A stretch of 64,000 bases of DNA from the human T2T-CHM13v2.0 reference genome, Homo sapiens (GCA_009914755.4 CP086569.2:28800001-28864000); one strand, 5' to 3'. Positions 29,686-64,000 are shown, counted from the stretch's first letter. Notes: a model not told the origin generated them from the sequence alone. Numbers and translations are program-made.

Positions 29686-30194
29686 TTGGAGTCCGTACCA
29701 GTCGAGTCCATTCTATTCCAGTCCATTAGTTTCGACTCCATTGCATTCGAGTGCATTCCATTCCGTGGCTGTCCATTCCATTCCGTTTGATGCCATTCCA
29801 TACGATTCCATTCAATTCGAGACCATTCTATTCCTGTCCATTCCTTGTGGTTCGATTCCATTTCACTATAGTCCATTCCATTCCATTGAATTCCATACGA
29901 CTCTATTCCGTTCCATTCAATTCCATTCCTTTCGATTCCATTTTTTTGGAGAACCTTCCATTACACTCCCTTCCATTCCAGTGCATTCCATTCCAGTCTC
30001 TTCAGTTCGATTCCATTCCATTCGTTTCAATTCCATTCCATTCCAGCCCATTCCATTCCATTCCATTCCTTTCCTTTCCGTTTCATTAGATTCCATTGCA
30101 TTCGATTCCATTCAATTCAATTCCGTGCTATTCAATTTGATTCATTTCCATTTAATTCCATTGCATTAGATTCCATTCCGTTCGATTCCATTCC

Positions 30195-31324
30195 TTTCGA
30201 ATCCATTCCATTGGAGTCCATTCACTTCCAGAACATTCCCTTCCAGTCGAATCCATTCGAGTAGATTCCATTAATGTTCATTACATTCTACTACATTCCA
30301 TTCCATTGCATTCCATTCCATTCCGTTCGATGCCATTCGATTCCACTCCATGCCAAATCATTGCATTCCTTTCCACTCCGTTCCTATCAATTCAATTCCA
30401 TTCGATTTAGTTCGATTCTATTCACTTCCATTCCATCCGATTCCATTCCATTGGAGTCAATTCCTTTCGACACCCAGCCTTTCCAGTCAATGATTTTGGA
30501 TTCCATTTTTTTGCATTCCATTACATTCTATGACATTCGATTCCGTTTCATTGCATTCCATTCCATACATTTTTATTCCATTCGAGACCGTAGCATTCTG
30601 CTTTATTCCAGGCCTGTCCATTGCACTACATTCCCTTCCATTCCAATGAATTCCATTCCATTCCAATCCATTCCTTTCCTTTCGCTTGTATTCCATTCTA
30701 TTCTCTTCTACTGCATACAATTTCACTCCATTCGTTCCCATTCCATTCAATTCCATTCCATTCAATTCCATTCCATTTGTTTCCATTCTCTTCGATTCCA
30801 TTTCTTTATATTCCATGCCATTCGATTCCATTCTATTGGATTGCATTACATTCGTATTCACTCCATTCCAGACCATTCCATTTGACTCCATTCCTTTCGA
30901 GCCCTTTCAACTTAAGTCCATTCCTTTCCAGTCCATTTCACTCCAGTCCATTACTGTCCATTCCATACCATTCCATCCCATTCCATTCCATTCCATTGCA
31001 TTCCATTCCATTCCGTTCCATTGCACTGTACTCCATTCCATTACATTCTACTCCATTTGAGTCGATTTTATTGCATTAGATTCTATTCCATTGGATTGCT
31101 TTCCATTCGATTACATTCCATTCATGTACATTCCATTCCAGTCAATTACATTCGAGTTCATTACATTACATTCCAGTATATTCCATTGTATTCGGTCCCA
31201 TTCCTTTCAATTCCATTTCATTAGACTCCATTATATTCGATTCCATTCCACTCGAATACATTCCATTAGAGGACATTCCATTCCAATGCATTCCATTCCA
31301 TTTCATAGCATTCCATCGCATTCG
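30195..31324. repeat. ~1.13-kb array-2-specific HOR segment (first copy), bounded by 14-bp direct repeats 'ttcgattccattcc' at ~30181-30194 and ~31311-31324. It is absent from the 2.38-kb units and recurs once per 3.53-kb unit.
   Basis: Alignment by eye: array 1 at 1641-1690 equals the left flank (ccgttcgattccattcc) joined directly to the right flank (atttgatgccattcc...). In array 2 the two flanks are separated by diverged pentamer sequence containing cgacacccagcctttccagtcaatgattttgg, gagaccgtagcattc and ccaggcctgtcc. Confidence 0.75.
30611..30614. other. HaeIII (GGCC) site within 'ccaggcctgtcc', which appears to occur only once per 3.53-kb unit and is not seen in array 1.
   Basis: Recurs at ~34144, ~37671, etc. 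It is mutated in v7 (ccaagcctgtcc ~51821) and v8 (ccattcctgtcc ~55350). No GGCC noticed in the 2.38-kb units on visual scan. Confidence 0.5.
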
Positions 31325-32423
31325 ATTCCATTCCATTTGATGCCATTCCATGACATTCCATTCCATTCGAGTCCATTCCGTTCCAATTCATTCCATTCCG
31401 TTTCATGAAATTCGAGTCCTTTCCAGTACATTTCATTCCAATCACATCCAATCCAATCTACTCCATTCAATTCCTTTCCATTCCATTTGATTATTTTCCA
31501 TTGATTTGATTCCATTCAGTTTGATTCCATTCCGTGAAATTTCGTTCCATTCTATTCCATTGCATTACTTTCCATTCAATTCCATTCCATTTCATTTCAG
31601 TCCATTCGCTTACTTTCCTTTCGATTCAATTCCATTTGATTCCACTCCATTCTATGTGATTTCATTCCAATCGATTCAATTCCATTCGATGACATTCCTT
31701 TCGTTTCCATTCCATTCGAGTCCATTTAATTTGAGCATTCGTGTCCATTCTATTCGAGTCCATTCCATTACCGTCTATTCTACTCCCTTCCATTCCTGTT
31801 GATTCAATTTCATTCCCTTCCATTCGATTCCTTTCCATTCGATTCCATTCCTTTCCATTCCATTCCATTCGTTCCCATTCCATGTGATTTCATTCCATTC
31901 CAGTCCATTATATTCGAGTCCACTCCACTCCATTCTATTACATTCAATTCCTTTTGAGTCCGTTCCATAACACTCCATTCATTTCGAATCCATTTCTTGC
32001 CAGTTTTCTTCCATTTTATTCCATTCCGTTCGATTCCATTCCATTCGATTGCATTCCATTCGATTGCATTCCATTCGAATCCTTTCCATTCCATTTCATT
32101 CCATTCCTTTCTATTCCATTCCATTTCATTCGATTTGATTCCATTCTGTTCTATTCCATTCAATTCTTTTTCATTCCATTCGAATCCTTTCTATTGCAGT
32201 CCATTCCATTCGAGTCCATTCCAATCCCTTCCATTCCATTCCATTACAGTCCATTCCAATAGATTCCATTCCTTTGCCTTCCATTCGAATCCATTCCATT
32301 CTAGTCCATTCCATTTGAGTCAATTCCATTCCATTCCATTCTATTCCTTTCCAATCCATTCGATTCCATTCGATTCAATTCCATTTGATTCTCTTTCATT
32401 CTATTTTATTCCATGCCATTTCA

Positions 32424-35400
32424 TTGCATTGCATTGCATTCCGTTTGATTCCAGTCCATTCAAGAAAGTTCCATTCCAGTCCATTGCTTACGAGTCCATT
32501 CCATTCCACTCTAGTCTATTCCACTCCATTCCTTTCCATTCCATTCCATACTATTCCATTCCATTCCTTTGCTTTCCGTTTCTAATCTATTCGAGTCCAT
32601 TGCATTCCAGTCCAATCCATTCGATTACATGCCTTTTGATTCCCTGCCAGTCGATTGCATTGCATACTAGACCATTCCAAACGAGTCCATTCCATTCTAT
32701 TTCAACAATTTCCATTCCACTCTGTTCGAGTCCATTCCATTCCAGTCCATTTAATTCAAGGGCATTCCATTCCATTCCATTCCATTTCATATTATTCCAT
32801 TCCATTCAATTCCATTCCAGATGATTCCATTCCATTCTATACCATTGCTCTCTGTTCCATTCCATTCCATCTGTCTCCATTCCTTTCGTTTCGATTCCTT
32901 TCCATTCCATTCCATTACATTTGATCCTATTTTATTAAATTGCATTCTATTCGAGTGATTTCCATTCGAGTCCTTTCCATTCGATTCCATTCCATTCTAT
33001 TCCATTCCTTTGGATTCCATTCCATTCCGTTCCGTTCACATCCATTCCTTGTGATTCCATTACATTCGATTTCTTGCCATTCGATTCCATTCCTTTTGAC
33101 TCCATTTCATTCGATTCCATTCCATTCCATTAATTTCCATTCCATTCGAGACCTTTACATTGCAGTCTTTTCCCTTCGAGTCCATTCCGTTCGATTCCCT
33201 TCCATTCGATTCCATTCCATTGGAGTCCGTACCAGTCGAGTCCATTCTATTCCAGTCCATTAGTGTCGACTCCATTGCATTCGAGTGCATTCCATTCCGT
33301 GGCTGTCCATTCCATTCCGTTTGATGCCATTCCATACGATTCCATTCAATTCGAGACCATTCTATTCCTGTCCATTCCTTGTGGTTCGATTCCATTTCAC
33401 TCTAGTCCATTCCATTCCATTGAATTCCATACGACTCTATTCCGTTCCATTCAATTCCATTCCTTTCGATTCCATTTTTTTGGAGAACTTTCCATTACAC
33501 TCCCTTCCATTCCAGTGCATTCCATTCCAGTCTCTTCAGTTCGATTCCATTCCATTCGTTTCGATTCCATTCCATTCCAGCCCATTCCATTCAATTCCAT
33601 TCCTTTCCTTTCCGTTTCATTAGATTCCATTGCATTCGATTCCATTCAATTCAATTCCGTGCTATTCAATTTGATTCATTTCCATTTAATTCCATTGCAT
33701 TAGATTCCATTCCGTTCGATTCCATTCCTTTCGAATCCATTCCATTGGAGTCCATTCACTTCCAGAACATTCCATTCCAGTCGAATCCATTCGAGTAGAT
33801 TCCATTAATGTTCATTACATTCTACTACATTCCATTCCATTGCATTCCATTCCATTCCGTTCGATGCCATTCGATTCCACTCCATGCCAAATCATTGCAT
33901 TCCTTTCCACTCCGTTCCTATCAATTCAATTCCATTCGATTTAGTTCGATTCTATTCACTTCCATTCCATCCGATTCCATTCCATTGGAGTCAATTCTTT
34001 CGACACCCAGCCTTTCCAGTCAATGATTTTGGATTCCATTTTTTTGCATTCCATTACATTCTATGACATTCGATTCCGTTTCATTGCATTCCATTCCATA
34101 CATTTTTATTCCATTCGAGACCGTAGCATTCCACTTTATTCCAGGCCTGTCCATTGCACTACATTCCCTTCCATTCCAATGAATTCCATTCCATTCCAAT
34201 CCATTCCTTTCCTTTCGCTTGTTTTCCATTCTATTCTCTTCTACTGCATACAATTTCACTCCATTCGTTCCCATTCCATTCAATTCCATTCCATTCAATT
34301 CCATTCCATTTGTTTCCTTTCTCTTCGATTCCATTTCTTTATATTCCATGCCATTCGATTCCATTCTATTGCATTGCATTACATTCGTATTCACTCCATT
34401 CCAGACCATTCCATTTGACTCCATTCCTTTCGAGCCCTTTCAACTTAAGTCCATTCCTTTCCAGTCCATTTCACTCCAGTCCATTACTGTCCATTCCATA
34501 CCATTCCATCCCATTCCATTCCATTCCATTCCATTCCATTGCATTCCATTCCATTCCGTTCCATTGCACTGTACTCCATTCCATTACATTCTACTCCATT
34601 TGAGTCGATTTTATTGCATTAGATTCTATTCCATTGGATTGCTTTCCATTCGATTACATTCCATTCATGTACATTCCATTCCAGTCAATTACATTCGAGT
34701 TCATTACATTACATTCCAGTATATTCCATTGTATTCGGACCCATTCCTTTCAATTCCATTTCATTAGACTCCATTATATTCGATTCCATTCCACTCGAAT
34801 ACATTCCATTAGAGGACATTCCATTCCAATGCATTCCATTCCATTTCATAGCATTCCATCGCATTCGATTCCATTCCATTTGATGCCATTCCATGACATT
34901 CCATTCCATTCGAGTCCATTCCGTTCCAATTCATTCCATTCCGTTTCATGAAATTCGAGTCCTTTCCAGTACATTTCATTCCAATCACATCCAATCCAAT
35001 CTACTCCATTCAATTCCTTTCCATTCCATTTGATTATTTTCCATTGATTTGATTCCATTCAGTTTGATTCCATTCCGTGAAATTTCGTTCCATTCTATTC
35101 CATTGCATTACTTTCCATTCAATTCCATTCCATTTCATTTCAGTCCATTCGCTTCCTTTCCTTTCGATTCAATTCCATTTGATTCCACTCCATTCTATGC
35201 GATTTCATTCCAATCGATTCAATTCCATTCGATGACATTCCTTTCGTTTCGATTCCATTCGATTCCATTCAATTTGAGCATTCGTGTCCATTCTATTCGA
35301 GTCCATTCCATTACCGTCTATTCTATTCCCTTCCATTCCTGTTGATTCAATTTCATTCCCTTCCATTCGATTCCTTTCCATTCGATTCCATTCCTTTCCA

Positions 35401-35956
35401 TTCCATTCCATTCGTTCCCATTCCATGTGATTTCATTCCATTCCAGTCCATTATATTCGAGTCCACTCCACTCCATTCTATTACATTCAATTCCTTTTGA
35501 GTCCGTTCCATAACACTCCATTCATTTCGATTCCATTTCTTGCCAGTTTTCTTCCATTTTATTCCATTCCGTTCGATTCCATTCCTTTCGATTGCATTCC
35601 ATTCGATTGCATTCCATTCGAATCCTTTCCATTCCATTTCATTCCATTCCTTTCTATTCCATTCCATTTCATTCGATTTGATTCCATTCTGTTCTATTCC
35701 ATTCAATTCTTTTTCATTCCATTCGAATCCTTTCTATTGCAGTCCATTCCATTCAAGTCCATTCCAATCCCTTCCATTCCATTCCATTACAGTCCATTCC
35801 AATAGATTCCATTCCTTTGCCTTCCATTCGAATCCATTCCATTCTTGTCCATTCCATTTGAGTCAATTCCATTCTATTCCTTTCCAATCCATTCGATTCC
35901 ATTTGATTCAATTCCATTTGATTCTCTTTCATTCTATTTTATTCCATGCCACTTGA
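32424..35956. repeat. Array 2 HOR unit v2 (3533 bp, insert subtype Y).
   Basis: Insert at 33808 carries a 1-bp deletion (gtcaattctttcgacaccc) that truncates the peptide to 72 aa. The 134-aa peptide is the KRKETNG/ENKRKE variant. Confidence 0.75.
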
Positions 35957-38900
35957 TTGCATTGCATTCCATTCCGTTTGATTCCAGTCCATTCAAGAAA
36001 GTTCCATTCCAGTCCATTGCTTTCCAGTCCATTCCATTCCACTCTAGTCTATTCCACTCCATTCCTTTCCATTCCATTCCATAATATTCCATTCCATTCC
36101 TTTGCTTTCCGTTTCCAATCTATTCGAGTCCATTGCATTCCAGTCCAATCCATTCGATTACATTCTTTTGATTCCCTGCCAGTCGATTGCATTGCATACT
36201 AGACCATTCCAAACGAGTCCATTCCATTCTATTTCAACACTTTCCATTCCACTCTGTTCGAGTCCATTCCATTCCAGTCCATTTAATTCAAGGGCATTCC
36301 ATTCCATTCCATTCCATTTCCTGTTATTCCATTCCATTCAATTCCATTCCAGATGATTCCATTCCATTCTATACCTTTGCTCTCTGTTCCATTCCATTCC
36401 ATCTGTCTCCATTCCTTTCGTTTCGATTCCTTTCCATTCCATTCCATTACATTTGATCCTATTTTATTAAATTGCATTCTATTCGAGTGCTTTCCATTCG
36501 AGTCCTTTCCATTCGATTCCATTCCATTCTATTCCATTCTTTTGGATTCCATTCCGTTCCGTTCCGTTCACATCAATTCCTTGCGATTCCATTACATTCG
36601 ATTTCTTGCCATTCGATTCCATTCCTTTTGACTCCATTTCATTCGATTCCATTCCATTCCATTAATTTCCATTCCATTCGAGACCTTTCCATTGCAGTCT
36701 TTTCCCTTCGAGTCCATTCCGTTCGATTCCCTTCCATTCGATTCCATTCCATTGGAGTCCGTACCAGTCGAGTCCATTCTGTTCCAGTCCATTAGTTTCG
36801 ACTCCATTGCATTCGAGTGCATTCCATTCCGTGGCTGTCCATTCCATTTCGTTTGATGCCATTCCATAAGATTCCATTAAATTCGAGACCATTCTATTCC
36901 TGTCCATTCCTTGTGGTTCGATTCCATTTCACTCTAGTCCATTCCATTCCATTGAATTCCATTCGACTCTATTCCGTTCCATTCAATTCCATTCCTTTCG
37001 ATTCCCTTTTTTTCGAGAACCTTCCATTACACTCCCTTCCATTCCAGTGCATTCCATTCCAGTCTCTTCAGTTCGATTCCATTCCATTCGTTTCGATTCC
37101 ATTCCATTCCAGCCCATTCCATTCCATTCCATTCCTTTCCTTTCCGTTTCATTAGATTCCATTGCATTCGATTCCATTCAATTCATTTCCGTTCTATTCA
37201 ATTTGATTCATTTCCATTTAATTCCATTCCATTAGATTCCATTCCTTTCGAATCCATTCCATTGGAGTCCATTCACTTCCAGAACATTCCATTCCAGTCG
37301 AATCCATTCGAGTACATTCCATTAAAGTTCATTACATTCTAATACATTCCATTCCATTGCATTCCATTCCATTCCATTCGATGCCATTCGATTCCATTCC
37401 ATGCCAAATCATTGCATTCCTTTCCATTCCGTTCCTATCCATTCCATTCCATTCGATTTAGTTCGATGCTATTCACTTCCATTCCATTCGATTCCATTCC
37501 ATTGGAGTCAATTCCTTTCGACACCCAGCCTTTCCAGTCAATGATTTTGGATTCCATTTTTTTGCATTCCATTACATTCTATGACATTCGATTCCATTTC
37601 ATTGCATTCCGTTCCATACATTTTTATTCCATTCGAGACCGTAGCATTCCACTTTATTCCAGGCCTGTCCATTACACTACATTCCCTTCCATTCCAATGA
37701 ATTCCATTCCATTCCAATCCATTCCTTTCCTTTCGCTTGCATTCCATTCTATTCTCTTCTACTGCATACAATTTCACTCCATTCGTTCCCATTCCATTCA
37801 ATTCCATTCCATTCAATTCCATTCCATTTGTTTCCATTCTCTTCAATTCCATTTCTTTATATTCCATGCCATTCGATTCCATTCTATTGGATTGCATTAC
37901 ATTCGTGTTCATTCCATTCCAGACCATTCCATTTGACTCCATTCCTTTCGAGCCCTTTCAATTTGAGTCCATTCTTTTCCAGTCCATTTCTCTCCAGTCC
38001 ATTACTATCCATTCCATACCATTCCATCCCATTCCATTCCATTCCATTCAATTCCATTGCATTCCATTCCATTCCATTCCTTTGCACTGCACTCCATTCC
38101 ATTACATTCTACTCTCTTTGAGTCGATTTTATTGCTTTAGATTCTATTCCATTGGATTACTATCCATTCGATTACATTCCATTCATGTACATTCCATTCC
38201 AGTCAATTACATTCGTGTTCATTACATTACATTCCAGTATATTCCATTTTATTCGGTCCCATTCCTTTCAATTCCATTTCATTCGACTCCATCATATTCC
38301 ATTCCATTCCACTCGAATCCATTCCATTAGAGGACATTCCATTCCAATGCATTCCATTCCATTCCATAGCATTCCATTGCATTCGATTCCATTCCATTTG
38401 ATGCCATTCCATTTGATGCCATTCCATGACATTCCATTCCATTCGAGTCCATTCCATTCCAATTCATTCCATTCCGTTTCATGAAATGCGAGTCCTTTCC
38501 ATTCCATTTCATTCCAATCCCATCCAATCCAATCTACTCCATTCAATTCCTTTCCATTCCATTTGATTATATTCCATTGATTTGATTCCATTCAGTTTGA
38601 TTCCATTCCGTGAAATTTCGTTCCATTCTATTCCATTGCATTACTTTCCATTCAATTCCATTCCATTTCATTTCAGTCCATTTGCTTCCTTTCCTTTCGA
38701 TTCAATTCCATTTGATTCCACTCCATTCTATGCGATTTCATTCCAATCGATTCAATTCCATTCGTTGACATTCCTTTCGTTTCCATTCCATTCGAGTCCA
38801 TTCAATTTGAGCATTCGTGTCCATTCTATTCGAGTCCATTCCATTACCGTCTATTCTATTCCCTTGCATTCCTGTTGATTCAATTTCATTCCCTTCCATT

Positions 38901-39483
38901 CGATTCCTTTCCATTCGATTCCATTCCTTTCCATTCCATTCCATTCGTTCCCATTCCATGTGATTTCATTCCATTCCTGTCCATTATATTCGAGTCCACT
39001 CCACTCCATTCTATTACATTCAATTCCTTTTGAGTCCGTTCCATAACACTCCATTCATTTCGATTCCATTTCTTGCCAGTTTGCTTCCATTTTATTCCGT
39101 TCCGTTCGATTCCATTCCATTCCATTGCATTCCATTCGAATCCTTTCCATTCCATTTCATTCCATTCCTTTCTATTCCATTCCATTTCATTTGATTTGAT
39201 TCCATTCTGTTCTATTCCATTCAATTCTTTTTCATTCCATTCGAATCCTTTCTATTGCAGTCCATTCCATTCGAGTCCATTCCAATCCCTTCCATTCCAT
39301 TCCATTACAGTCCATTCCAATAGATTCCATTCCTTTGCATTCCATTCGAATCCATTCCATTCTAGTCCATTCCATTTGAGTCAATTCCATTCCATTCCAT
39401 TCTATTCCTTTCCAATCCATTCGATTCCATTCGATTCAATTCCATTTGATTCTCTTTCATTCATTTTATTCCATGCCATTTGA
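35957..39483. repeat. Array 2 HOR unit v3 (3527 bp, insert subtype Z).
   Basis: MHSFPFRSYPFHS insert variant at 37412. M-type 134-aa peptide at 37538. Head carries the MLSVS variant block (36102). Confidence 0.75.
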
Positions 39484-42400
39484 TTGCATTGCATTCCATT
39501 CCGTTTGATTCCAGTCCATTCAAGAAAGTTCCATTCCAGTCCATTGCTTTCCAGTCCATTCCATTCCACTCTAGTCTATTCCACTCCATTCCTTTCCATT
39601 CCATTCCATAATATTCCATTCCATTCCTTTGCTTTCCGTTTCCAATCTATTCGAGTCCATTGCATTCCAGTCCAATCCATTCGATTACATTCCTTTTGAT
39701 TCCCTGCCAGTCGATTGCATTGCATACTAGACCATTCCAAACGAGTCCATTCCATTCTATTTCAACACTTTCCATTCCACTCTGTTCGAGTCCATTCCAT
39801 TCCAGTCCATTTAATTCAAGGGCATTCCATTCCATTCCATTCCATTTCATATTATTCCATTCCATTCAATTCCATTCCAGATGATTCCATTCCATTCTAT
39901 ACCATTGCTCTCTGTTCCATTCCATTCCATCTGTCTCCATTCCTTTCGTTTCGATTCCTTTCCATTCCATTCCATTACATTTGATCCTATTTTATTAAAT
40001 TGCATTCTATTCGAGTGATTTCCATTCGAGTCCTTTCCATTCGATTCCATTCCATTCTATTCCATTCCTTTGGATTCCATTCCATTCCGTTCCGTTCACA
40101 TCCATTCCTTGTGATTCCATTACATTCGATTTCTTGCCATTCGATTCCATTCCTTTTGACTCCATTTCATTCGATTCCATTCCATTCCATTAATTTCCAT
40201 TCCATTCGTGACCTTTACATTGCAGTCTTTTCCCTTCGAGTCCATTCCGTTCGATTCCCTTCCATTCGATTCCATTCCATTGGAGTCCGTACCAGTCGAG
40301 TCCATTCTATTCCAGTCCATTAGTGTCGACTCCATTGCATTCGAGTGCATTCCATTCCGTGGCTGTCCATTCCATTCCGTTTGATGCCATTCCATACGAT
40401 TCCATTCAATTCGAGACCATTCTATTCCTGTCCATTCCGTGTGGTTCGATTCCATTTCACTATAGTCCATTCCATTCCATTGAATTCCATACGACTCTAT
40501 TCCGTTCCATTCAATTCCATTCCTTTCGATTCCATTTTTTTGGAGAACCTTCCATTACACTCCCTTCCATTCCAGTGCATTCCATTCCAGTCTCTTCAGT
40601 TCGATTCCATTCCATTCGTTTCTATTCCATTCCATTCCAGCCCATTCCATTCCATTCCATTCCTTTCCTTTCCGTTTCATTAGATTCCATTGCATTCGAT
40701 TCCATTCAATTCAATTCCGTGCTATTCAATTTGATTCATTTCCATTTAATTCCATTGCATTAGATTCCATTCCGTTCGATTCCATTCCTTTCGAATCCAT
40801 TCCATTGGAGTCCATTCACTTCCAGAACATTCCATTCCAGTCGAATCCATTCGAGTAGATTCCATTAATGTTCATTACATTCTACTACATTCCATTCCAT
40901 TGCATTCCATTCCATTCCGTTCGATGCCATTCGATTCCACTCCATGCCAAATCATTGCATTCCTTTCCACTCCGTTCCTATCAATTCAATTCCATTCGAT
41001 TTAGTTCGATTCTATTCACTTCCATTCCATCCGATTCCATTCCATTGGAGTCAATTCCTTTCGACACCCAGCCTTTCCAGTCAATGATTTTGGATTCCAT
41101 TTTTTTGCATTCCATTACATTCTATGACATTCGATTCCGTTTCATTGCATTCCATTCCATACATTTTTATTCCATTCGAGACCGTAGCATTCCACTTTAT
41201 TCCAGGCCTGTCCATTGCACTACATTCCCTTCCATTCCAATGAATTCCATTCCATTCCAATCCATTCCTTTCCTTTCGCTTGTATTCCATTCTATTCTCT
41301 TCTACTGCATACAATTTCACTCCATTCGTTCCCATTCCATTCAATTCCATTCCATTCAATTCCATTCCATTTGTTTCCATTCTCTTCAATTCCATTTCTT
41401 TATATTCCATGCCATTCGATTCCATTCTATTGGATTGCATTACATTCGTGTTCATTCCATTCCAGACCATTCCATTTGACTCCATTCCTTTCGAGCCCTT
41501 TCAATTTGAGTCCATTCTTTTCCAGTCCATTTCACTCCAGTCCATTACTATCCATTCCATACCATTCCATCCCATTCCATTCCATTCCATTCAATTCCAT
41601 TGCATTCCATTCCATTCCATTCCATTGCACTGCACTCCATTCCATTACATTCTACTCTCTTTGAGTCGATTTTATTGCTTTAGATTCTATTCCATTGGAT
41701 TACTATCCATTCGATTACATTCCATTCATGTACATTCCATTCCAGTCAATTACATTCGTGTTCATTACATTACATTCCAGTATATTCCATTTTATTCGGT
41801 CCCATTCCTTTCAATTCCATTTCATTCGACTCCATCATATTCCATTCCATTCCACTCGAATCCATTCCATTAGAGGACATTCCATTCCAATGCATTCCAT
41901 TCCATTCCATAGCATTCCATTGCATTCGATTCCATTCCATTTGATGCCATTCCATTTGATGCCATTCCATGACATTCCATTCCATTCGAGTCCATTCCGT
42001 TCCAATTCATTCCATTCCGTTTCATGAAATTCGAGTCCTTTCCAGTACATTTCATTCCAATCACATCCAATCCAATCTACTCCATTCAATTCCTTTCCAT
42101 TCCATTTGATTATTTTCCATTGATTTGATTCCATTCAGTTTGATTCCATTCCGTGAAATTTCGTTCCATTCTATTCCATTGCATTACTTTCCATTCAATT
42201 CCATTCCATTTCATTTCAGTCCATTCGCTTACTTTCCTTTCGATTCAATTCCATTTGATTCCACTCCATTCTATGTGATTTCATTCCAATCGATTCAATT
42301 CCATTCGATGACATTCCTTTCGTTTCCATTCCATTCGAGTCCATTTAATTTGAGCATTCGTGTCCATTCTATTCGAGTCCATTCCATTACCGTCTATTCT

Positions 42401-43032
42401 ACTCCCTTCCATTCCTGTTGATTCAATTTCATTCCCTTCCATTCGATTCCTTTCCATTCGATTCCATTCCTTTCCATTCCATTCCATTCGTTCCCATTCC
42501 ATGTGATTTCATTCCATTCCAGTCCATTATATTCGAGTCCACTCCACTCCATTCTATTACATTCAATTCCTTTTGAGTCCGTTCCATAACACTCCATTCA
42601 TTTCGAATCCATTTCTTGCCAGTTTTCTTCCATTTTATTCCATTCCGTTCGATTCCATTCCATTCCATTCGATTGCATTCCATTCGAATCCTTTCCATTC
42701 CATTTCATTCCATTCCTTTCTATTCCATTCCATTTCATTCGATTTGATTCCATTCTGTTCTATTCCATTCAATTCTTTTTCATTCCATTCGAATCCTTTC
42801 TATTGCAGTCCATTCCATTCGAGTCCATTCCAATCCCTTCCATTCCATTCCATTACAGTCCATTCCAATAGATTCCATTCCTTTGCCTTCCATTCGAATC
42901 CATTCCATTCTAGTCCATTCCATTTGAGTCAATTCTATTCCATTCCATTCTATTCCTTTCCAATCCATTCGATTCCATTCGATTCAATTCCATTTGATTC
43001 TCTTTCATTCTATTTTATTCCATGCCATTTGA
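39484..43032. repeat. Array 2 HOR unit v4 (3549 bp, insert subtype X', Z-like in its distal half).
   Basis: Peptide at 40868 is X-like at its start and Z-like (Q, V) at its end. M-type 134-aa peptide at 41081. Confidence 0.7.
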
Positions 43033-53000: not shown

Positions 53001-53633
53001 CATTCCTGTTGATTCAATTTCATTCCCTTCCATTCGATTCCTTTCCATTCGATTCCATTCCTTTCCATTCCATTCCATTCGTTCCCATTCCATGTGATTT
53101 CATTCCATTCCAGTCCATTATATTCGAGTCCACTCCACTCCATTCTATTACATTCAATTCCTTTTGAGTCCGTTCCATAACACTCCATTCATTTCGAATC
53201 CATTTCTTGCCAGTTTTCTTCCATTTTATTCCATTCCGTTCGATTCCATTCCATTCGATTGCATTCCATTCGATTGCATTCCATTCGAATCCTTTCCATT
53301 CCATTTCATTCCATTCCTTTCTATTCCATTCCATTTCATTCGATTTGATTCCATTCTGTTCTATTCCATTCAATTCTTTTTCATTCCATTCGAATCCTTT
53401 CTATTGCAGTCCATTCCATTCGAGTCCATTCCAATCCCTTCCATTCCATTCCATTACAGTCCATTCCAATAGATTCCATTCCTTTGCCTTCCATTCGACT
53501 CCATTCCATTCTAGTCCATTCCATTTGAGTCAATTCCATTCCATTCCATTCTATTCCTTTCCAATCCATTCGATTCCATTCGATTCAATTCCATTTGATT
53601 CTCTTTCATTCTATTTTATTCCATGCCATTTCA
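50100..53633. repeat. Array 2 HOR unit v7 (3534 bp, subtype X with private variants).
   Basis: Peptide at 51484 (SKPVHC, FIFNAIRF). The GGCC site is mutated to agcc at ~51821. Confidence 0.75.
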
Positions 53634-56600
53634 TTGCATTGCATTGCATTCCGTTTGATTCCAGTCCATTCAAGAAAGTTCCATTCCAGTCCATTGCTTA
53701 CGAGTCCATTCCATTCCACTCTAGTCTATTCCACTCCATTCCTTTCCATTCCATTCCATACTATTCCATTCCATTCCTTTGCTTTCCGTTTCTAATCTAT
53801 TCGAGTCCATTGCATTCCAGTCCAATCCATTCGATTACATGCCTTTTGATTCCCTGCCAGTCGATTGCATTGCATACTAGACCATTCCAAACGAGTCCAT
53901 TCCATTCTATTTCAACAATTTCCATTCCACTCTGTTCGAGTCCATTCCATTCCAGTCCATTTAATTCAAGGGCATTCCATTCCATTCCATTCCATTTCAT
54001 ATTATTCCATTCCATTCAATTCCATTCCAGATGATTCCATTCCATTCTATACCATTGCTCTCTGTTCCATTCCATTCCATCTGTCTCCATTCCTTTCGTT
54101 TCGATTCCTTTCCATTCCATTCCATTACATTTGATCCTATTTTATTAAATTGCATTCTATTCGAGTGATTTCCATTCGAGTCCTTTCCATTCGATTCCAT
54201 TCCATTCTATTCCATTCCTTTGGATTCCATTCCATTCCGTTCCGTTCACATCCATTCCTTGTGATTCCATTACATTCGATTTCTTGCCATTCGATTCCAT
54301 TCCTTTTGACTCCATTTCATTCGATTCCATTCCATTCCATTAATTTCCATTCCATTCGAGACCTTTACATTGCAGTCTTTTCCCTTCGAGTCCATTCCGT
54401 TCGATTCCCTTCCATTCGATTCCATTCCATTGGAGTCCGTACCAGTCGAGTCCATTCTATTCCAGTCCATTAGTGTCGACTCCATTGCATTCGAGTGCAT
54501 TCCATTCCGTGGCTGTCCATTCCATTCCGTTTGATGCCATTCCATACGATTCCATTCAATTCGAGACCATTCTATTCCTGTCCATTCCTTGTGGTTCGAT
54601 TCCATTTCACTCTAGTCCATTCCATTCCATTGAATTCCATACGACTCTATTCCGTTCCATTCAATTCCATTCCTTTCGATTCCATTTTTTTGGAGAACTT
54701 TCCATTACACTCCCTTCCATTCCAGTGCATTCCATTCCAGTCTCTTCAGTTCGATTCCATTCCATTCGTTTCGATTCCATTCCATTCCAGCCCATTCCAT
54801 TCCATTCCATTCCTTTCCTTTCCGTTTCATTAGATTCCATTGCATTCGATTCCATTCAATTCAATTCCGTGCTATTCAATTTGATTCATTTCCATTTAAT
54901 TCCATTGCATTAGATTCCATTCCGTTCGATTCCATTCCTTTCGAATCCATTCCATTGGAGTCCATTCACTTCCAGAACATTCCATTCCAGTCGAATCCAT
55001 TCGAGTAGATTCCATTAATGTTCATTACATTCTACTACATTCCATTCCATTGCATTCCATTCCATTCCGTTCGATGCCATTCGATTCCACTCCATGCCAA
55101 ATCATTGCATTCCTTTCCACTCCGTTCCTATCAATTCAATTCCATTCGATTTAGTTCGATTCTATTCACTTCCATTCCATCCGATTCCATTCCATTGGAG
55201 TCAATTCTTTCGACACCCAGCCTTTCCAGTCAATGATTTTGGATTCCATTTTTTTGCATTCCATTACATTCTATGACATTCGATTCCGTTTCATTGCATT
55301 CCATTCCATACATTTTTATTCCATTCGAGACCGTAGCATTCCACTTTATTCCATTCCTGTCCATTGCACTACATTCCCTTCCATTCCAATGAATTCCATT
55401 CCATTCCAATCCATTCCTTTCCTTTCGCTTGTTTTCCATTCTATTCTCTTCTACCGCATACAATTTCACTCCATTCGTTCCCATTCCATTCAATTCCATT
55501 CCATTCAATTCCATTCCATTTGTTTCCTTTCTCTTCGATTCCATTTCTTTATATTCCATGCCATTCGATTCCATTCTATTGGATTGCATTACATTCGTAT
55601 TCACTCCATTCCAGACCATTCCATTTGACTCCATTCCTTTCGAGCCCTTTCAACTTAAGTCCATTCCTTTCCAGTCCATTTCACTCCAGTCCATTACTGT
55701 CCATTCCATACCATTCCATCCCATTCCATTCCATTCCATTCCATTCCATTGCATTCCATTCCATTCCGTTCCATTGCACTGTACTCCATTCCATTTCATT
55801 CTACTCCATTTGAGTCGATTTTATTGCATTAGATTCTATTCCATTGGATTGCTTTCCATTCGATTACATTCCATTCATGTACATTCCATTCCAGTCAATT
55901 ACATTCGAGTTCATTACATTACATTCCAGTATATTCCATTGTATTCGGACCCATTCCTTTCAATTCCATTTCATTAGACTCCATTATATTCGATTCCATT
56001 CCACTCGAATACATTCCATTAGAGGACATTCCATTCCAATGCATTCCATTCCATTTCATAGCATTCCATCGCATTCGATTCCATTCCATTTGATGCCATT
56101 CCATGACATTCCATTCCATTCGAGTCCATTCCGTTCCAATTCATTCCATTCCGTTTCATGAAATTCGAGTCCTTTCCAGTACATTTCATTCCAATCACAT
56201 CCAATCCAATCTACTCCATTCAATTCCTTTCCATTCCATTTGATTATATTCCATTGATTTGATTCCATTCAGTTTGATTCCATTCCGTGAAATTTCGTTC
56301 CATTCTATTCCATTGCATTACTTTCCATTCAATTCCATTCCATTTCATTTCAGTCCATTCGCTTCCTTTCCTTTCGATTCAATTCCATTTGATTCCACTC
56401 CATTCTATGCGATTTCATTCCAATCGATTCAATTCCATTCGATGACATTCCTTTCGTTTCGATTCCATTCGAGTCCATTCAATTTGAGCATTCGTGTCCA
56501 TTCTATTCGAGTCCATTCCATTACCGTCTATTCTATTCCCTTCCATTCCTGTTGATTCAATTTCATTCCCTTCCATTCGATTCCTTTCCATTCGATTCCA

Positions 56601-57166
56601 TTCCTTTCCATTCCATTCCATTCGTTCCCATTCCATGTGATTTCATTCCATTCCAGTCCATTATATTCGAGTCCACTCCACTCCATTCTATTACATTCAA
56701 TTCCTTTTGAGTCCGTTCCATAACACTCCATTCATTTCGATTCCATTTCTTGCCAGTTTTCTTCCATTTTATTCCATTCCGTTCGATTCCATTCCTTTCG
56801 ATTGCATTCCATTCGATTGCATTCCATTCGAATCCTTTCCATTCCATTTCATTCCATTCCTTTCTATTCCATTCCATTTCATTCGATTTGATTCCATTCT
56901 GTTCTATTCCATTCAATTCTTTTTCATTCCATTCGAATCCTTTCTATTGCAGTCCATTCCATTCGAGTCCATTCCAATCCCTTCCATTCCATTCCATTAC
57001 AGTCCATTCCAATAGATTCCATTCCTTTGCCTTCCATTCGAATCCATTCCATTCTAGTCCATTCCATTTGAGTCAATTCCATTCTATTCCTTTCCAATCC
57101 ATTCGATTCCATTTGATTCAATTCCATTTGATTCTCTTTCATTCTATTTTATTCCATGCCACTTGA
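53634..57166. repeat. Array 2 HOR unit v8 (3533 bp, subtype Y).
   Basis: 72-aa insert peptide at 55018. Tail carries the MKENQ/138-aa variant block (56750, 56924). Confidence 0.75.
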
Positions 57167-60100
57167 TTGCATTGCATTCCATTCCGTTTGATTCCAGTCC
57201 ATTCAAGAAAGTTCCATTCCAGTCCATTGCTTTCCAGTCCATTCCATTCCACTCTAGTCTATTCCACTCCATTCCTTTCCATTCCATTCCATACTATTCC
57301 ATTCCATTCCTTTGCTTTCCGTTTCCAATCTATTCGAGTCCATTGCATTCCAGTCCAATCCATTCGATTACATTCTTTTGATTCCCTGCCAGTCGATTGC
57401 ATTGCATACTAGACCATTCCAAACGAGTCCATTCCATTCTATTTCAACACTTTCCATTCCACTCTGTTCGAGTCCATTCCATTCCAGTCCATTTAATTCA
57501 TGGGCATTCCATTCCATTCCATTCCATTTCCTGTTATTCCATTCCATTCAATTCCATTCCAGATGATTCCATTCCATTCTATACCTTTGCTCTCTGTTCC
57601 ATTCCATTCCATCTGTCTCCATTCCTTTCGTTTCGATTCCTTTCCATTCCATTCCATTACATTTGATCCTATTTTATTAAATTGCATTCTATTCGAGTGC
57701 TTTCCATTCGAGTCCTTTCCATTCGATTCCATTCCATTCTATTCCATTCTTTTGGATTCCATTCCGTTCCGTTCCGTTCACATCAATTCCTTGCGATTCC
57801 ATTACATTCGATTTCTTGCCATTCGATTCCATTCCTTTTGACTCCATTTCATTCGATTCCATTCCATTCCATTAATTTCCATTCCATTCGAGACCTTTCC
57901 ATTGCAGTCTTTTCCCTTCGAGTCCATTCCGTTCGATTCCCTTCCATTCGATTCCATTCCATTGGAGTCCGTACCAGTCGAGTCCATTCTGTTCCAGTCC
58001 ATTAGTTTCGACTCCTTTGCATTCGAGTGCATTCCATTCCGTGGCTGTCCATTCCATTTCGTTTGATGCCATTCCATAAGATTCCATTCAATTCGAGACC
58101 ATTCTATTCCTGTCCATTCCTTGTGGTTCGATTCCATTTCACTCTAGTCCATTCCATTCCATTGAATTCCATTCGACTCTATTCCGTTCCATTCAATTCC
58201 ATTCCTTTCGATTCCCTTTTTTTCGAGAACCTTCCATTACACTCCCTTCCATTCCAGTGCATTCCATTCCAGTCTCTTCAGTTCGATTCCATTCCATTCG
58301 TTTCGATTCCATTCCATTCCAGCCCATTCTATTCCATTCCATTCCTTTCCTTTCCGTTTCATTAGATTCCATTGCATTCGATTCCATTCAATTCAATTCC
58401 GTTCTATTCAATTTGATTCATTTCCATTTAATTCCATTCCATTATATTCCATTCCTTTCGATTCCATTCCTTTCGAATCCATTCCATTGGAGTGCATTCA
58501 CTTCCAGAACATTCCATTCCAGTCGAATCCATTCGAGTACATTCCATTAAAGTTCATTACATTCTAATACATTCCATTCCATTGCATTCCATTCCATTCC
58601 TTTCGATGCCATTCGATTCCATTCCATGCCAAATCATTGCATTCCTTTCCATTCCGTTCCTATCAATTCCATTCCATTCGATTTAGTTCGATTCTATTCA
58701 CTTCCATTCCATTCGATTCCATTCCATTGGAGTCAATTCCTTTCGACACCCAGCCTTTCCAGTCAATGATTTTGGATTCCATTTTTTTGCATTCCATTAC
58801 ATTCTATGACATTCGATTCCGTTTCATTGCATTCCATTCCATACATTTTTATTCCATTCGAGACCGTAGCATTCCCCTTTATTCCAGGCCTGTCCATTAC
58901 ACTACATTCCCTTCCATTCAAATGAATTCCATTCCATTCCAATCCATTCCTTTCCTTTCGCTTGCATTCCATTCTATTCTCTTCTACTGCATACAATTTC
59001 ACTCCATTCGTTCCCATTCCATCCCATTCCATTCCATTCCATTGCATTCCATTGCATTCCATTCCATTCCATTCCATTGCACTGCACTCCATTCCATTAC
59101 ATTCTACTCTATTTGAGTCGATTTTATTGCATTAGATTCTATTCCATTGGATTACTTTCCATTCGATTACATTCCATTCATGTACATTCCATTCCAGTCA
59201 ATTACATTCGAGTTCATTACATTACATTCCAGTATATTCCATTGTATTCGATCCCATTCCTTTCAATTCCATTTCATTCGACTCCATTATATTCGATTCC
59301 ATTCCACTCGAATCCATTCCATTAGAGGACATTCCATTCCAATGCATTCCATTCCATTCCATAGCATTCCAATGCATTCGATTCCATTCCATTTGATGCC
59401 ATTCCATGACATTCCATTCCATTCGAGTCCATTCCGTTCCAATTCATTCCATTCCGTTTCATGAAATTCGAGTCCTTTCCAGTACATTTCATTCCAATCC
59501 CATCCAATCCAATCTACTCCATTCAATTCCTTTCCATTCCATTTGATTAGATTCCATTGATTTGATTCCATTCAGTTTGATTCCATTCCGTGAAATTTCG
59601 TTCCATTCTATTCCATTGCATTACTTTCCATTCAATTCCATTCCATTTCATTTCAGTCCATTCGCTTCCTTTCCTTTCGATTCAATTCCATTTGATTCCA
59701 CTCCATTCTATGCGATTTCATTCCAATCGATTCAATTCCATTCGATGACATTCCTTTCGTTTCCATTCCATTCGAGTCCATTCAATTTGAGCATTCGTGT
59801 CCATTCTATTCGAGTCCATTCCATTACCGTCTATTCTATTCCCTTCCATTCCTGTTGATTCAATTTCATTCCCTTCCATTCGATTCCTTTCCATTCGATT
59901 CCATTCCTTTCCATTCCATTCCATTCGTTCCCATTCCATGTGATTTCATTCCATTCCAGTCCATTATATTCGAGTCCACTCCACTCCATTCTATTACATT
60001 CAATTCCTTTTGAGTCCGTTCCATAACACTCCATTCATTTCGATTCCATTTCTTGCCAGTTTTCTTCCATTTTATTCCATTCCGTTCGATTCCATTCCTT

Positions 60101-60469
60101 TCGATTGCATTCCATTCGATTGCATTCCATTCGAATCCTTTCCATTCCATTTCATTCCATTCCTTTCTATTCCATTCCATTTCATTCGATTTGATTCCAT
60201 TCTGTTCTATTCCATTCAATTCTTTTTCATTCCATTCGGATCCTTTCTATTGCAGTCCATTCCATTCGAGTCCATTCCAATCCCTTCCATTCCATTCCAT
60301 TACAGTCCATTCCAATAGATTCCATTCCTTTGCCTTCCATTCGAATCCATTCCATTCTAGTCCATTCCATTTGAGTCAATTCCATTCTATTCCTTTCCAA
60401 TCCATTCGATTCCATTCGATTCAATTCCATTTGATTCTCTTTCATTCTATTTTATTCCATGCCACTTGA
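57167..60469. repeat. Array 2 HOR unit v9 (3303 bp): Z-type unit with a ~245-bp internal deletion.
   Basis: H-anchor spacing 57167 -> 60470 is 3303 (otherwise ~3533). The 159-aa peptide at 58637 jumps from ...FHSIRSHSI straight to PFHSIPLHSIAFHS, which in v10 lies ~240 bp further on (62330 -> ~62575). The 134-aa minus-strand peptide is replaced by a 109-aa variant at 58763. Confidence 0.8.
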
Positions 60470-63400
60470 TTGCATTGCATTCCATTCCGTTTGATTCCAG
60501 TCCATTCAAGAAAGTTCCATTCCAGTCCATTGCTTTCGAGTCCATTCCATTCCACTCTAGTCTATTCCACTCCATTCCTTTCCATTCCATTCCATACTAT
60601 TCCATTCCATTCCTTTGCTTTCCGTTTCCAATCTATTCGAGTCCATTGCATTCCAGTCCAATCCATTCGATTACATTCTTTTGATTCCCTGCCAGTCGAT
60701 TGCATTGCATACTAGACCATTCCAAACGAGTCCATTCCATTCTATTTCAACACTTTCCATTCCACTCTCTTCGAGTCCATTCCATTCCAGTCCATTTAAT
60801 TCAAGGGCATTCCATTCCATTCCATTCCATTTCCTATTATTCCATTCCATTCAATTCCATTCCAGATGATTCCATTCCATTCTATACCATTGCTCTCTGT
60901 TCCATTCCATTCCATCTGTCTCCATTCCTTTCGTTTCGATTCCTTTCCATTCCATTCCATTACATTTGATCCTATTTTATTAAATTGCATTCTATTCGAG
61001 TGATTTCCATTCGAGTCCTTTCCATTCGATTCCATTCCATTCTATTCCATTCCTTTGGATTCCATTCCGTTCCGTTCCGTTCACATCAATTCCTTGCGAT
61101 TCCATTACATTCGATTTCTTGCCATTCGATTCCATTCCTTTTGACTCCATTTCATTCGATTCCATTCCATTCCATTAATTTCCATTCCATTCGAGACCTT
61201 TCCATTGCAGTCTTTTCCCTTCGAGTCCATTCCGTTCGATTCCCTTCCATTCGATTCCATTCCATTGGAGTCCGTACCAGTCGAGTCCATTCTATTCCAG
61301 TCCATTAGTTTCGACTCCATTGCATTCGAGTGCATTCCATTCCGTGGCTGTCCATTCCATTTCGTTTGATGCCATTCCATAAGATTCCATTCAATTCGAG
61401 ACCATTCTATTCCTGTCCATTCCTTGTGGTTCGATTCCATTTCTCTCTAGTCCATTCCATTCCATTGAATTCCATTCGACTCTATTCCGTTCCATTCAAT
61501 TCCATTCCTTTCGATTCCCTTTTTTTCGAGAACCTTCCATTACACTCCCTTCCATTCCAGTGCATTCCATTCCAGTCTCTTCAGTTCGATTCCATTCCAT
61601 TCGTTTCGATTCCATTCCATTCCAGCCCATTCCATTCCATTCCATTCCGTTCCTTTCCGTTTCATTAGATTCCATTGCATTCGATTCCATTCAATTCAAT
61701 TCCGTGCTATTCAATTTGATTCATTTCCATTTAATTCCATTCCATTATATTCCATTCCTTTCGATTCCATTCCTTTCGAATCCATTCCATTGGAGTGCAT
61801 TCACTTCCAGAACATTCCATTCCAGTCGAATCCATTCGAGTACATTCCATTAAAGTTCATTACATTCTAATACATTCCATTCCATTGCATTCCATTCCAT
61901 TCCTTTCGATGCCATTCGATTCCAATCCATGCCAAATCATTGCATTCCTTTCCATTCCGTTCCTATCAATTCCATTCCATTCGATTTAGTTCGATTCTAT
62001 TCACTTCCATTCCATCCGATTCCATTCCATTGGAGTCAATTCCTTTCGACACCCAGCCTTTCCAGTCAATGATTTTGGATTCCATTTTTTTGCATTCCAT
62101 TACATTCTATGACATTCGATTCCGTTTCATTGCATTCCATTCCATACATTTTTATTCCATTCGAGACCGTAGCATTCCACTTTATTCCAGGCCTGTCCAT
62201 TACACTACATTCCCTTCCATTCCAATGAATTCCATTCCATTCCAATCCATTCCTTTCCTTTCGCTTGCATTCCATTCTATTCTCTTCTACTGCATACAAT
62301 TTCACTCCATTCGTTCCCATTCCATTCAATTCCATTCCATTCAATTCCATTCCATTTGTTTCCATTCTCTTCGATTCCATTTCTTTATATTCCATGCCAT
62401 TCGATTCCATTCTATTGGATTGCATTACATTCGTGTTCATTCCATTCCAGACCATTCCATTTGACTCCATTCCTTTCGAGCCCTTTCAATTTGAGTCCAT
62501 TCTTTTCCAGTCCATTTCACTCCAGTCCATTACTATCCATTCCATACCATTCCATCCCATTCCATTCCATTCCATTGCATTCCATTGCATTCCATTCCAT
62601 TCCATTCCATTGCACTGCACTCCATTCCATTACATTCTACTCTATTTGAGTCGATTTTATTGCATTAGATTCTATTCCATTGGATTACTTTCCATTCGAT
62701 TACATTCCATTCATGTACATTCCATTCCAGTCAATTACATTCGAGTTCATTACATTACATTCCAGTATATTCCATTGTATTCGATCCCATTCCTTTCAAT
62801 TTCATTTCATTCGACTCCATTATATTCGATTCCATTCCACTCGAATCCATTCCATTAGAGGACATTCCATTCCAATGCATTCCATTCCATTCCATAGCAT
62901 TCCAATGCATTCGATTCCATTCCATTTGATGCCATTCCATTTGATGCCATTCCATGACATTCCATTCCATTCGAGTCCATTCCGTTCCAATTCATTCCAT
63001 TCCGTTTCATGAAATTCGAGTCCTTTCCAGTACATTTCATTCCAATCCCATCCAATCCAATCTACTCCATTCAATTCCTTTCCATTCCATTTGATTAGAT
63101 TCCATTGATTTGATTCCATTCAGTTTGATTCCATTCCGTGAAATTTCGTTCCATTCTATTCCATTGCATTACTTTCCATTCAATTCCATTCCATTTCATT
63201 TCAGTCCATTCGCTTCCTTTCCTTTCGATTCAATTCCATTTGATTCCACTCCATTCTATGCGATTTCATTCCAATCGATTCAATTCCATTCGATGACATT
63301 CCTTTCGTTTCCATTCCATTCGAGTCCATTCAATTTGAGCATTCGTGTCCATTCTATTCGAGTCCATTCCATTACCGTCTATTCTATTCCCTTCCATTCC

Positions 63401-64000
63401 TGTTGATTCAATTTCATTCCCTTCCATTCGATTCCTTTCCATTCGATTCCATTCCTTTCCATTCCATTCCATTCGTTCCCATTCCATGTGATTTCATTCC
63501 ATTCCAGTCCATTATATTCGAGTCCACTCCACTCCATTCTATTACATTCAATTCCTTTTGAGTCCGTTCCATAACACTCCATTCATTTCGATTCCATTTC
63601 TTGCCAGTTTTCTTCCATTTTATTCCATTCCGTTCGATTCCATTCCTTTCGATTGCATTCCATTCGATTGCATTCCATTCGAATCCTTTCCATTCCATTT
63701 CATTCCATTCCTTTCTATTCCATTCCATTTCATTCGATTTGATTCCATTCTGTTCTATTCCATTCAATTCTTTTTCATTCCATTCGAATCCTTTCTATTG
63801 CAGTCCATTCCATTCGAGTCCATTCCAATCCCTTCCATTCCATTCCATTACAGTCCATTCCAATAGATTCCATTCCTTTGCCTTCCATTCGAATCCATTC
63901 CATTCTAGTCCATTCCATTTGAGTCAATTCCATTCTATTCCTTTCCAATCCATTCGATTCCATTCGATTCAATTCCATTTGATTCTCTTTCATTCTATTT
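60470..64000. repeat. Array 2 HOR unit v10 (partial, ~3531 of ~3548 bp, subtype Z).
   Basis: Full-length 174-aa MHSFPF peptide at 61940 and 134-aa peptide at 62066. The window ends ~17 bp before the next unit anchor. Confidence 0.7.

What the first reader, a model, noticed from the sequence alone, without database searches (positions are those of the whole stretch)
30274..64000. Array 2 is a mosaic of X/Y/Z unit variants with swapped heads and tails
Three groupings emerge from the unit heads, inserts and tails.
- Insert variants: X (v1, v5, v7; X' in v4), Y (v2, v6, v8), Z (v3, v9, v10). The X-Y pairs v1-v2, v5-v6 and v7-v8 recur at 14,143 and 7,067 bp spacing.
- An independent variant block (MKENQ / 138-aa / MLSVS peptides) marks the tail-to-head junctions of v2/v3, v8/v9 and v9/v10, regardless of insert type.
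- The v4 and v6 tails share an 'LSQFYS / STLSIP' form, whereas the v1, v5 and v7 tails share 'LSQFHS / STISIP'.
This patchwork implies frequent unequal exchange or gene conversion with breakpoints inside units.
Basis: seen in the sequence. Interest (0 to 1): 0.5.

Follow-up and report, generated by a model that had tools for sequence, protein, structure and literature searches.

The report
Mosaic repeat units in DYZ1 satellite
The region is non-coding human DYZ1 (HSat3A6) satellite DNA, most likely from the Y chromosome, whose ~3.5-kb repeat units are patchworks of a few local variants; this is the expected trace of unequal exchange and gene conversion between repeats, so it is real but ordinary.

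Summary
Window 30274-64000 contains nine complete ~3.53-kb units and one truncated unit, and they group differently in different segments. Among 89 informative characters, 863 of 3,916 pairs fail the four-gamete test, the minimum number of exchanges is 13, and permutation gives p<=0.0002. Segment trees conflict, with bootstrap support up to 100%. The result does not depend on unit phase, CpG sites or indels.

The sequence is not a gene array. The whole window is (CATTC)n-derived human satellite of the HSat3A6/DYZ1 family. The published HSat3A6 24-mer occurs once per unit. The DYZ1 primers I recalled sit 154 bp apart, and there is one HaeIII site per unit. Public DYZ1 copies are 96-98.5% identical.

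Array 1 (2,377 bp) is the same unit lacking a 1,134-bp segment. Array 2 is a derived "alpha" 7.07-kb dimer interleaved with older beta/Z units, with chimeric units at the joins. The array 1/array 2 boundary is itself such a chimera.

Interest is low.

The parts
1..27800 (+). Array 1: a 2,377-bp DYZ1/HSat3A6 variant repeat (leading partial unit plus A1-A11). It equals the array-2 unit minus a 1,134-bp segment, has no HaeIII site, and shows unit types a-b-a-b-c repeating every 11,883 bp.
   Evidence: Periods. Alignment to the array-2 unit at 97-98% identity. Unit table. Variant table. HSat3A6 24-mer once per unit. Restriction sites.
27801..31318 (+). U0, the boundary chimera. Array-1 type b up to 29389, array-2 alpha-type from 29505, followed by the first array-2-specific segment (X form) at 30194-31318.
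   Evidence: Copying-model painting. MaxChi p<=5e-5 with the breakpoint between columns 1606 and 1722. Coordinates.
31319..34861 (+). U1: alpha core (31319-33727) plus Y insert (33728-34861).
34862..38394 (+). U2: beta core, sharing derived states with U8, plus a Z insert whose 3' half shares 9 derived states with U3. The switch lies within 37193-37845.
   Evidence: (p<=5e-5).
38395..41937 (+). U3, the most mosaic unit. Ancestral or array-1-like to about 39691, alpha-type from about 40103 to 41283, then Z (identical to U2) from 41388.
41938..45461 (+). U4: alpha'' core plus X insert. The first ~10 bp keep the ancestral 'TG' that continues the preceding Z block; the switch lies within 41946-42063.
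45462..48994 (+). U5: alpha core plus an insert that is Y at its head and X at its tail; the switch lies within 48461-48653.
   Evidence: (p=0.0085).
48995..52528 (+). U6: alpha'' core plus X insert. A possible alpha-to-alpha'' switch within 49718-50003 is only borderline (p=0.05).
52529..56071 (+). U7: alpha core plus Y insert. With U6 it forms the 7,067-bp alpha''X-alphaY dimer, which is also seen as U0-U1 and U4-U5.
   Evidence: Lag tracks..
56072..59374 (+). U8: beta core (like U2) to 58403, like U9 from 58445. The Z' insert carries a 230-bp deletion at 59013/59014.
   Evidence: (p=0.0025).
59375..64000 (+). U9 (beta' core plus Z' insert, 59375-62922) and the truncated U10 (62923-64000, beta').
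34130..34283 (+). One example of a 154-bp interval present once per array-2 unit. It is bounded by the two DYZ1 sexing-primer sequences I recalled and contains the unit's single HaeIII/StuI site (34143-34144).

Best explanation
The window is non-coding human satellite DNA of the HSat3A6/DYZ1 family, the ~3.5-kb (CATTC)n-derived repeat of the Y long-arm heterochromatin. It probably comes from a diverged or peripheral part of that family. Array 2 is not a set of independent X/Y/Z units. It is a locally derived, recently amplified 'alpha' lineage organised as a 7.07-kb two-unit repeat (alpha''-X, alpha-Y), interleaved with older beta/Z units.

The patchwork arose by out-of-register exchange between repeat copies on the same chromosome. 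Unequal sister-chromatid or intrachromatid crossover duplicated multi-unit blocks and left chimeric units where the breakpoints fell inside a unit. Short gene-conversion-like patches copied 0.5-1.6 kb from one type into another.

Shown here: the family identity, the mosaic, its significance and the breakpoint intervals. Inferred: the molecular mechanism, the direction of events and the chromosomal location.
For: Identity.
- The HSat3A6 example 24-mer from Table 1 of Altemose 2014 occurs once per unit in 21 units. The 12 other subfamily 24-mers tested from that table (HSat2A1's was not shown in the excerpt and was not tested) occur zero times.
- Two 23-nt DYZ1 primers that I recalled match once per array-2 unit, facing each other, 154 bp apart.
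- There is one HaeIII site per unit, GC is 0.39 and there is 1 CpG per 33 bp. Published DYZ1 values are 38% GC, 1 CpG per 35 bp, one HaeIII site per unit and a mean unit of 3,543 bp.
- The same sequence appears as orphan 1-3.6-kb contigs in unrelated bacterial assemblies and in a human gut metagenome, which is the contamination pattern described for Y HSat3. These copies are 96-98.5% identical to the window's units.

Mosaic.
- Phase independence is shown.
- Polarised, conflicting shared derived states are shown.

Block duplication. Tracts with few differences spanning about 1.5-2.3 units (roughly 5.5-8 kb) occur at lags of 2, 4 and 6 units.

Patches. The alpha segment inside U3 has non-alpha sequence on both sides, and U5/U6 show a similar pattern.

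Literature. Yq12 patterns are described as consistent with unequal exchange, and sister-chromatid exchanges were seen there by Strand-seq. Unequal sister-chromatid crossover is proposed for DYZ1/DYZ2, with gene conversion not excluded. Gene-conversion-like de novo events in Yq12 were reported in father-son pairs.
Against: - No human reference was available, so the exact locus and even the chromosome are not established. Altemose 2014 lists HSat3A6 as 'Y, 7'.
- The units are 1.5-4% diverged from the public DYZ1 copies and are 3,518-3,549 bp rather than the canonical 3,564-3,569 bp.
- The primer sequences come from memory and were not found in the paper library.
- Crossover and conversion cannot be told apart from a single haplotype.
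- Assembly errors in satellite DNA could create some chimeric units, and this could not be checked.
Confidence: 0.85

Rival explanations
1. No exchange occurred. The units diverged along a simple duplication tree, and the apparent mosaic comes from recurrent mutation (CpG decay, pentamer slippage) or from an unlucky choice of unit phase.
For: The 10-bp and 15-bp pentamer indels could recur.
Against: - Incompatible sites are strongly clustered by position (PHI permutation p<=0.0002).
- The signal persists without CpG transitions and without indels (Rm = 9), and at every phase (Rm >= 8).
- Eight derived states shared by {U2,U8} all lie at or before column 2349 of the unit alignment (seven shared by U2 and U8 alone, plus column 391, where U7 also carries it). 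Nine derived states shared by {U2,U3} all lie at or after column 3016.
Confidence: 0.02
2. The chimeric units are assembly artefacts: mis-joined or collapsed long reads in a near-identical satellite.
For: Satellite arrays are error-prone. The published Y assemblies flag Yq12 as the hardest region. No read data are available here.
Against: - Breakpoints separate blocks that differ by many fixed variants and are each internally consistent.
- The same block types recur in order (U0-U2 resembles U6-U8).
- Array 1 keeps a regular a-b-a-b-c pattern right up to the boundary chimera.
- Random mis-joins would not be expected to give such regular structure.
Confidence: 0.07
3. One mechanism alone produced the pattern: either only unequal crossover (every switch is one end of a block duplication or deletion) or only non-reciprocal gene conversion (no copy-number change).
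For: Only crossover: multi-unit tracts with few differences at lags 2, 4 and 6, length variants, and the 1,134-bp and 230-bp deletions. Only conversion: the short alpha patch in U3 and the U5/U6 patch.
Against: Each class of trace is awkward for the other mechanism. A 1.2-1.6-kb patch bounded on both sides needs two crossovers. Duplicated blocks of about 1.5-2.3 units (roughly 5.5-8 kb) need copy-number change. The literature invokes both.
Confidence: 0.15
4. The units are protein-coding repeats, such as a tandem gene family, and the peptide variants reflect selection on proteins.
For: Long ORFs (up to 286 aa) exist on both strands.
Against: - The ORFs are translations of degenerate CATTC pentamers (FHSIP... 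repeats).
- Pfam gives only sub-threshold low-complexity matches.
- No identical protein is on record.
- There are no Rfam matches.
- The DNA is a known satellite.
Confidence: 0.01

Closest known systems
DYZ1 / HSat3A6, the ~3.5-3.6-kb pentamer-derived repeat of human Yq12
   Same: CATTC-derived sequence. Unit length of 3.52-3.55 kb against a published mean of 3,543 bp. A single HaeIII site per unit. The subfamily-specific 24-mer. Matching GC and CpG density. 96-98.5% identity to public copies. Units near array edges are reported to be more diverged.
   Different: The units are 1.5-4% diverged from the common consensus and 15-50 bp shorter than the canonical 3,564-3,569 bp. The alpha, beta and Z derived variants are almost absent from 37 public contigs. 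The neighbouring array is a 2,377-bp deletion form. The chromosomal position was not verified.
Hybrid repeats at the Yq11/Yq12 transition (the 2.7-kb repeat made of DYZ18-like plus DYZ1-like parts; Hallast et al.)
   Same: A shorter DYZ1-derived unit forming its own tandem array next to DYZ1. It illustrates new units arising from exchange with breakpoints inside units.
   Different: Array 1 here is 2,377 bp and aligns to the DYZ1-type unit over its whole length at 97-98%. No foreign 23% DYZ18-like part is present.
Alpha-satellite higher-order-repeat variants and layered centromere arrays
   Same: Super-periodicities, young homogeneous units flanked by older diverged ones, and hybrid units created by out-of-register exchange. 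Hallast et al. draw the same analogy for Yq12.
   Different: A different satellite family (a 171-bp monomer versus a 5-bp-derived 3.5-kb unit), and no centromere function.

Membership tests
HSat3A6 / DYZ1 | Sequence derived from tandem CATTC/TTCCA pentamers | tested here: met
   TRF reports pentamer-multiple consensus units over positions 1-63985. The five rotations of CATTC are the five commonest 5-mers.
HSat3A6 / DYZ1 | Subfamily-specific 24-mer (Altemose 2014, Table 1: TCGTTTCGATTCCTTTCCATTCCA) present, and those of other HSat2/3 subfamilies absent | tested here: met
   21 occurrences, one per unit, in both arrays. Zero for the 12 other subfamily 24-mers tested (HSat2A1's was not tested). 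Only one example 24-mer per subfamily was available.
HSat3A6 / DYZ1 | Nested tandem repeat of ~3.5-3.6 kb | tested here: met
   Array 2 units are 3,518-3,549 bp, with one of 3,303 bp carrying a deletion. The published mean is 3,543 bp and the modal HaeIII fragment is 3,564-3,569 bp. Array 1 (2,377 bp) does not meet this and is a deletion variant.
HSat3A6 / DYZ1 | HaeIII (GGCC) cuts once per unit | tested here: met
   8 of 10 array-2 units have exactly one site. v7 and v8 lost it by point mutation. Array 1 has none because the site lies in the missing segment.
HSat3A6 / DYZ1 | Base composition of ~38% GC and ~1 CpG per 35 bp | tested here: met
   GC is 0.38-0.40 and there is 1 CpG per 33.5 bp, against the published values.
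HSat3A6 / DYZ1 | High identity to independent DYZ1 copies | tested here: met
   96-98.5% over up to 3.5 kb to contigs that carry the primer sites. Several of these are ~3.6-kb contigs, close to one unit in length. The contigs are unlabelled contaminants, so their DYZ1 identity is itself inferred.
HSat3A6 / DYZ1 | Male-specific location on Yq12, alternating with DYZ2/HSat1B blocks | not testable with these tools
   No human reference is available. No DYZ2 (AT-rich, Alu-containing) sequence lies in the 64 kb. Altemose 2014 lists the subfamily as 'Y, 7'.
Recombinant (mosaic) tandem-repeat units | Site incompatibilities clustered by position; incongruent segment trees; significant breakpoints | tested here: met

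The most novel reading that the evidence does not exclude
The window may capture a DYZ1 sub-locus that has not been described at unit resolution. Its features are a 2,377-bp deletion-variant repeat with a five-unit a-b-a-b-c super-repeat, joined through a chimeric unit to a private alpha-dimer lineage. Several switch points (41946-42063, 58403-58445) lie within ~100 bp of the edges of the 1,134-bp segment. That would hint at preferred exchange sites rather than random breakpoints.
Probability: 0.12. Interest if true: 0.3.

Novelty: already known. Interest (0 to 1): 0.12.

Why it matters
It matters little beyond bookkeeping. It shows at single-unit resolution how a DYZ1-type array is built: a young two-unit repeat spreading among older units, with chimeric units marking past exchanges. 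That agrees with the published model of Yq12 evolution by unequal sister-chromatid exchange plus gene conversion. The practical lessons are for scanning. Long ORFs and 'peptide variants' in such windows are artefacts of translating pentamer repeats. Short orphan contigs carrying this same satellite turn up in bacterial genome assemblies and metagenome assemblies, most likely as human contamination.

Tried and rejected
- Exact-protein look-ups of three ORFs to find the source assembly gave nothing on record.
- Literature searches for the DYZ1 primer strings found no paper. A search for 'DYZ1 154 bp' gave an irrelevant paper. The original DYZ1 sequence paper (PMC311781) is not held.
- I tested whether the 3.5-kb unit is a trimer of ~1.18-kb subunits, which would explain the 2,377-bp form as a dimer. 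The 10-mer offset histogram shows no such peak, so I dropped the idea.
- I looked for microhomology at the 1,134-bp deletion endpoints and found none beyond 1 bp. The junction is not sharply defined.
- The coding and structured-RNA readings were rejected: Pfam matches are sub-threshold only and Rfam gives none.
- A phase artefact, CpG homoplasy and indel misalignment as causes of the mosaic were all rejected.
- The 2.7-kb Yq11/Yq12 hybrid repeat as the identity of array 1 was rejected on length and composition.
Full report
**What the window is.** Tandem Repeats Finder describes the whole 64 kb as one array of degenerate TTCCA/CATTC pentamers. GC is 0.38-0.40 with a strong C-over-G skew throughout. 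K-mer spacing shows two higher-order periodicities: 2,377 bp up to about 30 kb, and 3,518-3,549 bp after that. They give only sub-threshold low-complexity Pfam matches, no identical protein is on record, and Rfam finds nothing. The 'peptides' are therefore only labels for DNA variants.

**Identity.**
- Table 1 of Altemose et al. 2014 gives an example diagnostic 24-mer for each HSat2/3 subfamily. The HSat3A6 (DYZ1) 24-mer occurs 21 times, once per unit in both arrays. The 12 other subfamily 24-mers I tested occur zero times.
- Two 23-nt primers that I recalled as the classical DYZ1 sexing primers match once per array-2 unit. They face each other 154 bp apart, and the chance expectation is 0.00-0.04 matches. 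I could not confirm the primers in the paper library.
- Each array-2 unit has one HaeIII/StuI site, lost by point mutation in v7 and v8. Array 1 has none.
- Unit length, 38% GC, one CpG per ~35 bp and a single HaeIII site per unit all match published DYZ1 descriptions.
- Exact-match scans found the primer sites on small orphan contigs of unrelated bacterial assemblies and on metagenome contigs, including a human gut sample. Several contigs are ~3.6 kb, about one unit in length. This is the contamination pattern the T2T-Y paper describes for Y HSat3. These copies are 96-98.5% identical to the window's units.
- I conclude the window is human HSat3A6/DYZ1-family satellite, probably a diverged or peripheral part. 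The exact locus could not be determined.

**Relation of the two arrays.** The 2,377-bp unit aligns over its full length to the 3.5-kb unit at 97-98% identity. It lacks one 1,134-bp segment, equivalent to 33728-34861. I re-phased all units as 'core' (shared, alignment columns 1-2415) followed by 'insert' (array-2-specific, columns 2416-3565). This gives A1-A11 and U0-U10.

**The observation.** Variant tables show discrete types.
- Cores: alpha (U1, U5, U7), alpha'' (U4, U6), beta (U2, U8, and the slightly different U9 and U10), and a composite U3.
- Inserts: X (U0, U4, U6), Y (U1, U7, and only the head of U5), Z (U2, and the 3' half of U3), and Z' (U8, which carries a 230-bp deletion, and U9).

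**Is it more than chance?**
- Among 89 biallelic informative characters, 863 of 3,916 pairs show all four combinations, and Hudson-Kaplan Rm is 13.
- Neighbouring sites are far more compatible than permuted ones: 0.084 against 0.220 +/- 0.012, p<=0.0002.
- The signal survives removing CpG transitions, indels, U0 or U3.
- It holds for every possible unit phase, with Rm >= 8.

**Polarising the variants.** Thirteen DYZ1 units extracted from public contigs are nearly unanimous at the informative sites, which identifies the derived states.
- The alpha lineage carries derived states along the whole unit.
- The beta lineage is derived in the core only.
- Z and Z' are derived in the insert only.
- The conflicts are between shared derived states. 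{U2,U8} share eight, all at or before column 2349 (seven exclusively, plus column 391, which U7 also carries). {U2,U3} share nine, all at or after column 3016. {U8,U9} share others from column 2391 onward.
- U3 is ancestral-like to column 1314, alpha-derived in columns 1726-2911, and Z from column 3016.
- The derived variants are almost absent from the 37 public loci, so they are local to this array.

NJ trees for four segments are incongruent, with Robinson-Foulds distances up to 14 of 14. The conflicting splits have 78-100% bootstrap support. A copying-model painting and MaxChi triplet tests place the switches at these window positions:
- 29389-29505 (U0, array-1 type to alpha type, p<=5e-5)
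- 37193-37845 (U2, p<=5e-5)
- 39691-40103 and 41283-41388 (U3)
- 41946-42063 (U4)
- 48461-48653 (U5, p=0.0085)
- 58403-58445 (U8, p=0.0025)

**Mechanism.** Comparing units at fixed lags shows tracts with few differences that run across unit boundaries: from mid-U0 through U1 against U4-U5, U4-U5 against U6-U7, and from mid-U0 into U2 against U6-U8. They span about 1.5-2.3 units, roughly 5.5-8 kb.
- These tracts indicate duplication of multi-unit blocks, and hence a 7,067-bp alpha''X-alphaY dimer. Unequal exchange produces this kind of duplication.
- The alpha patch in U3, and the X-tail/alpha-head patch at U5/U6, are bounded on both sides within 0.5-1.6 kb. That resembles gene conversion or double exchange.
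- If the sequence is Y-linked, all such exchange must be between sister chromatids or within a chromatid.
- This is the published model for Yq12. Which mechanism produced which switch is inferred, not shown.

**Verdict.** It is the ordinary, already described behaviour of a known human satellite, so novelty is nil to slight and interest is low.

Noticed in passing
window 1-27800: Array 1 has its own super-periodicity. Unit types run a-b-a-b-c, repeating every five units (11,883 bp). Unit A2 (4029-6405) is type b in its first ~1.5 kb but type a further on, so mosaic units occur in array 1 as well.
   Followed up: partly
window 27801-31318 (switch at 29389-29505): The boundary between the two arrays is a chimeric unit, not a clean junction at 30274. 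The array-1 a-b-a-b-c pattern continues into its 5' part before it switches to array-2 alpha-type sequence.
   Followed up: yes
window 33728-34861 (and the equivalent segment in each array-2 unit): The 1,134-bp segment missing from array 1 contains both DYZ1 primer sites and the only HaeIII site. The 2,377-bp form would therefore be invisible to the classical PCR and HaeIII assays. No microhomology was found at the deletion endpoints.
   Followed up: partly
window 51820 and 55353: The HaeIII/StuI site is lost in v7 (GGCC to AGCC) and in v8 (GGCC to TTCC).
   Followed up: yes
window 59013/59014: A 230-bp deletion in the insert of v9 (U8) accounts for the 3,303-bp unit.
   Followed up: yes
L001-L006 (bacterial genome contigs); L007-L037 (metagenome contigs): DYZ1-like sequence sits on short orphan contigs in assemblies labelled Actinomadura, Streptomyces, Streptosporangium, Senimuribacter and a Polyangiaceae MAG. 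This is most likely human DNA contamination. L014 (BNJU01001848.1) carries a more diverged (~92%) DYZ1-like repeat.
   Followed up: partly
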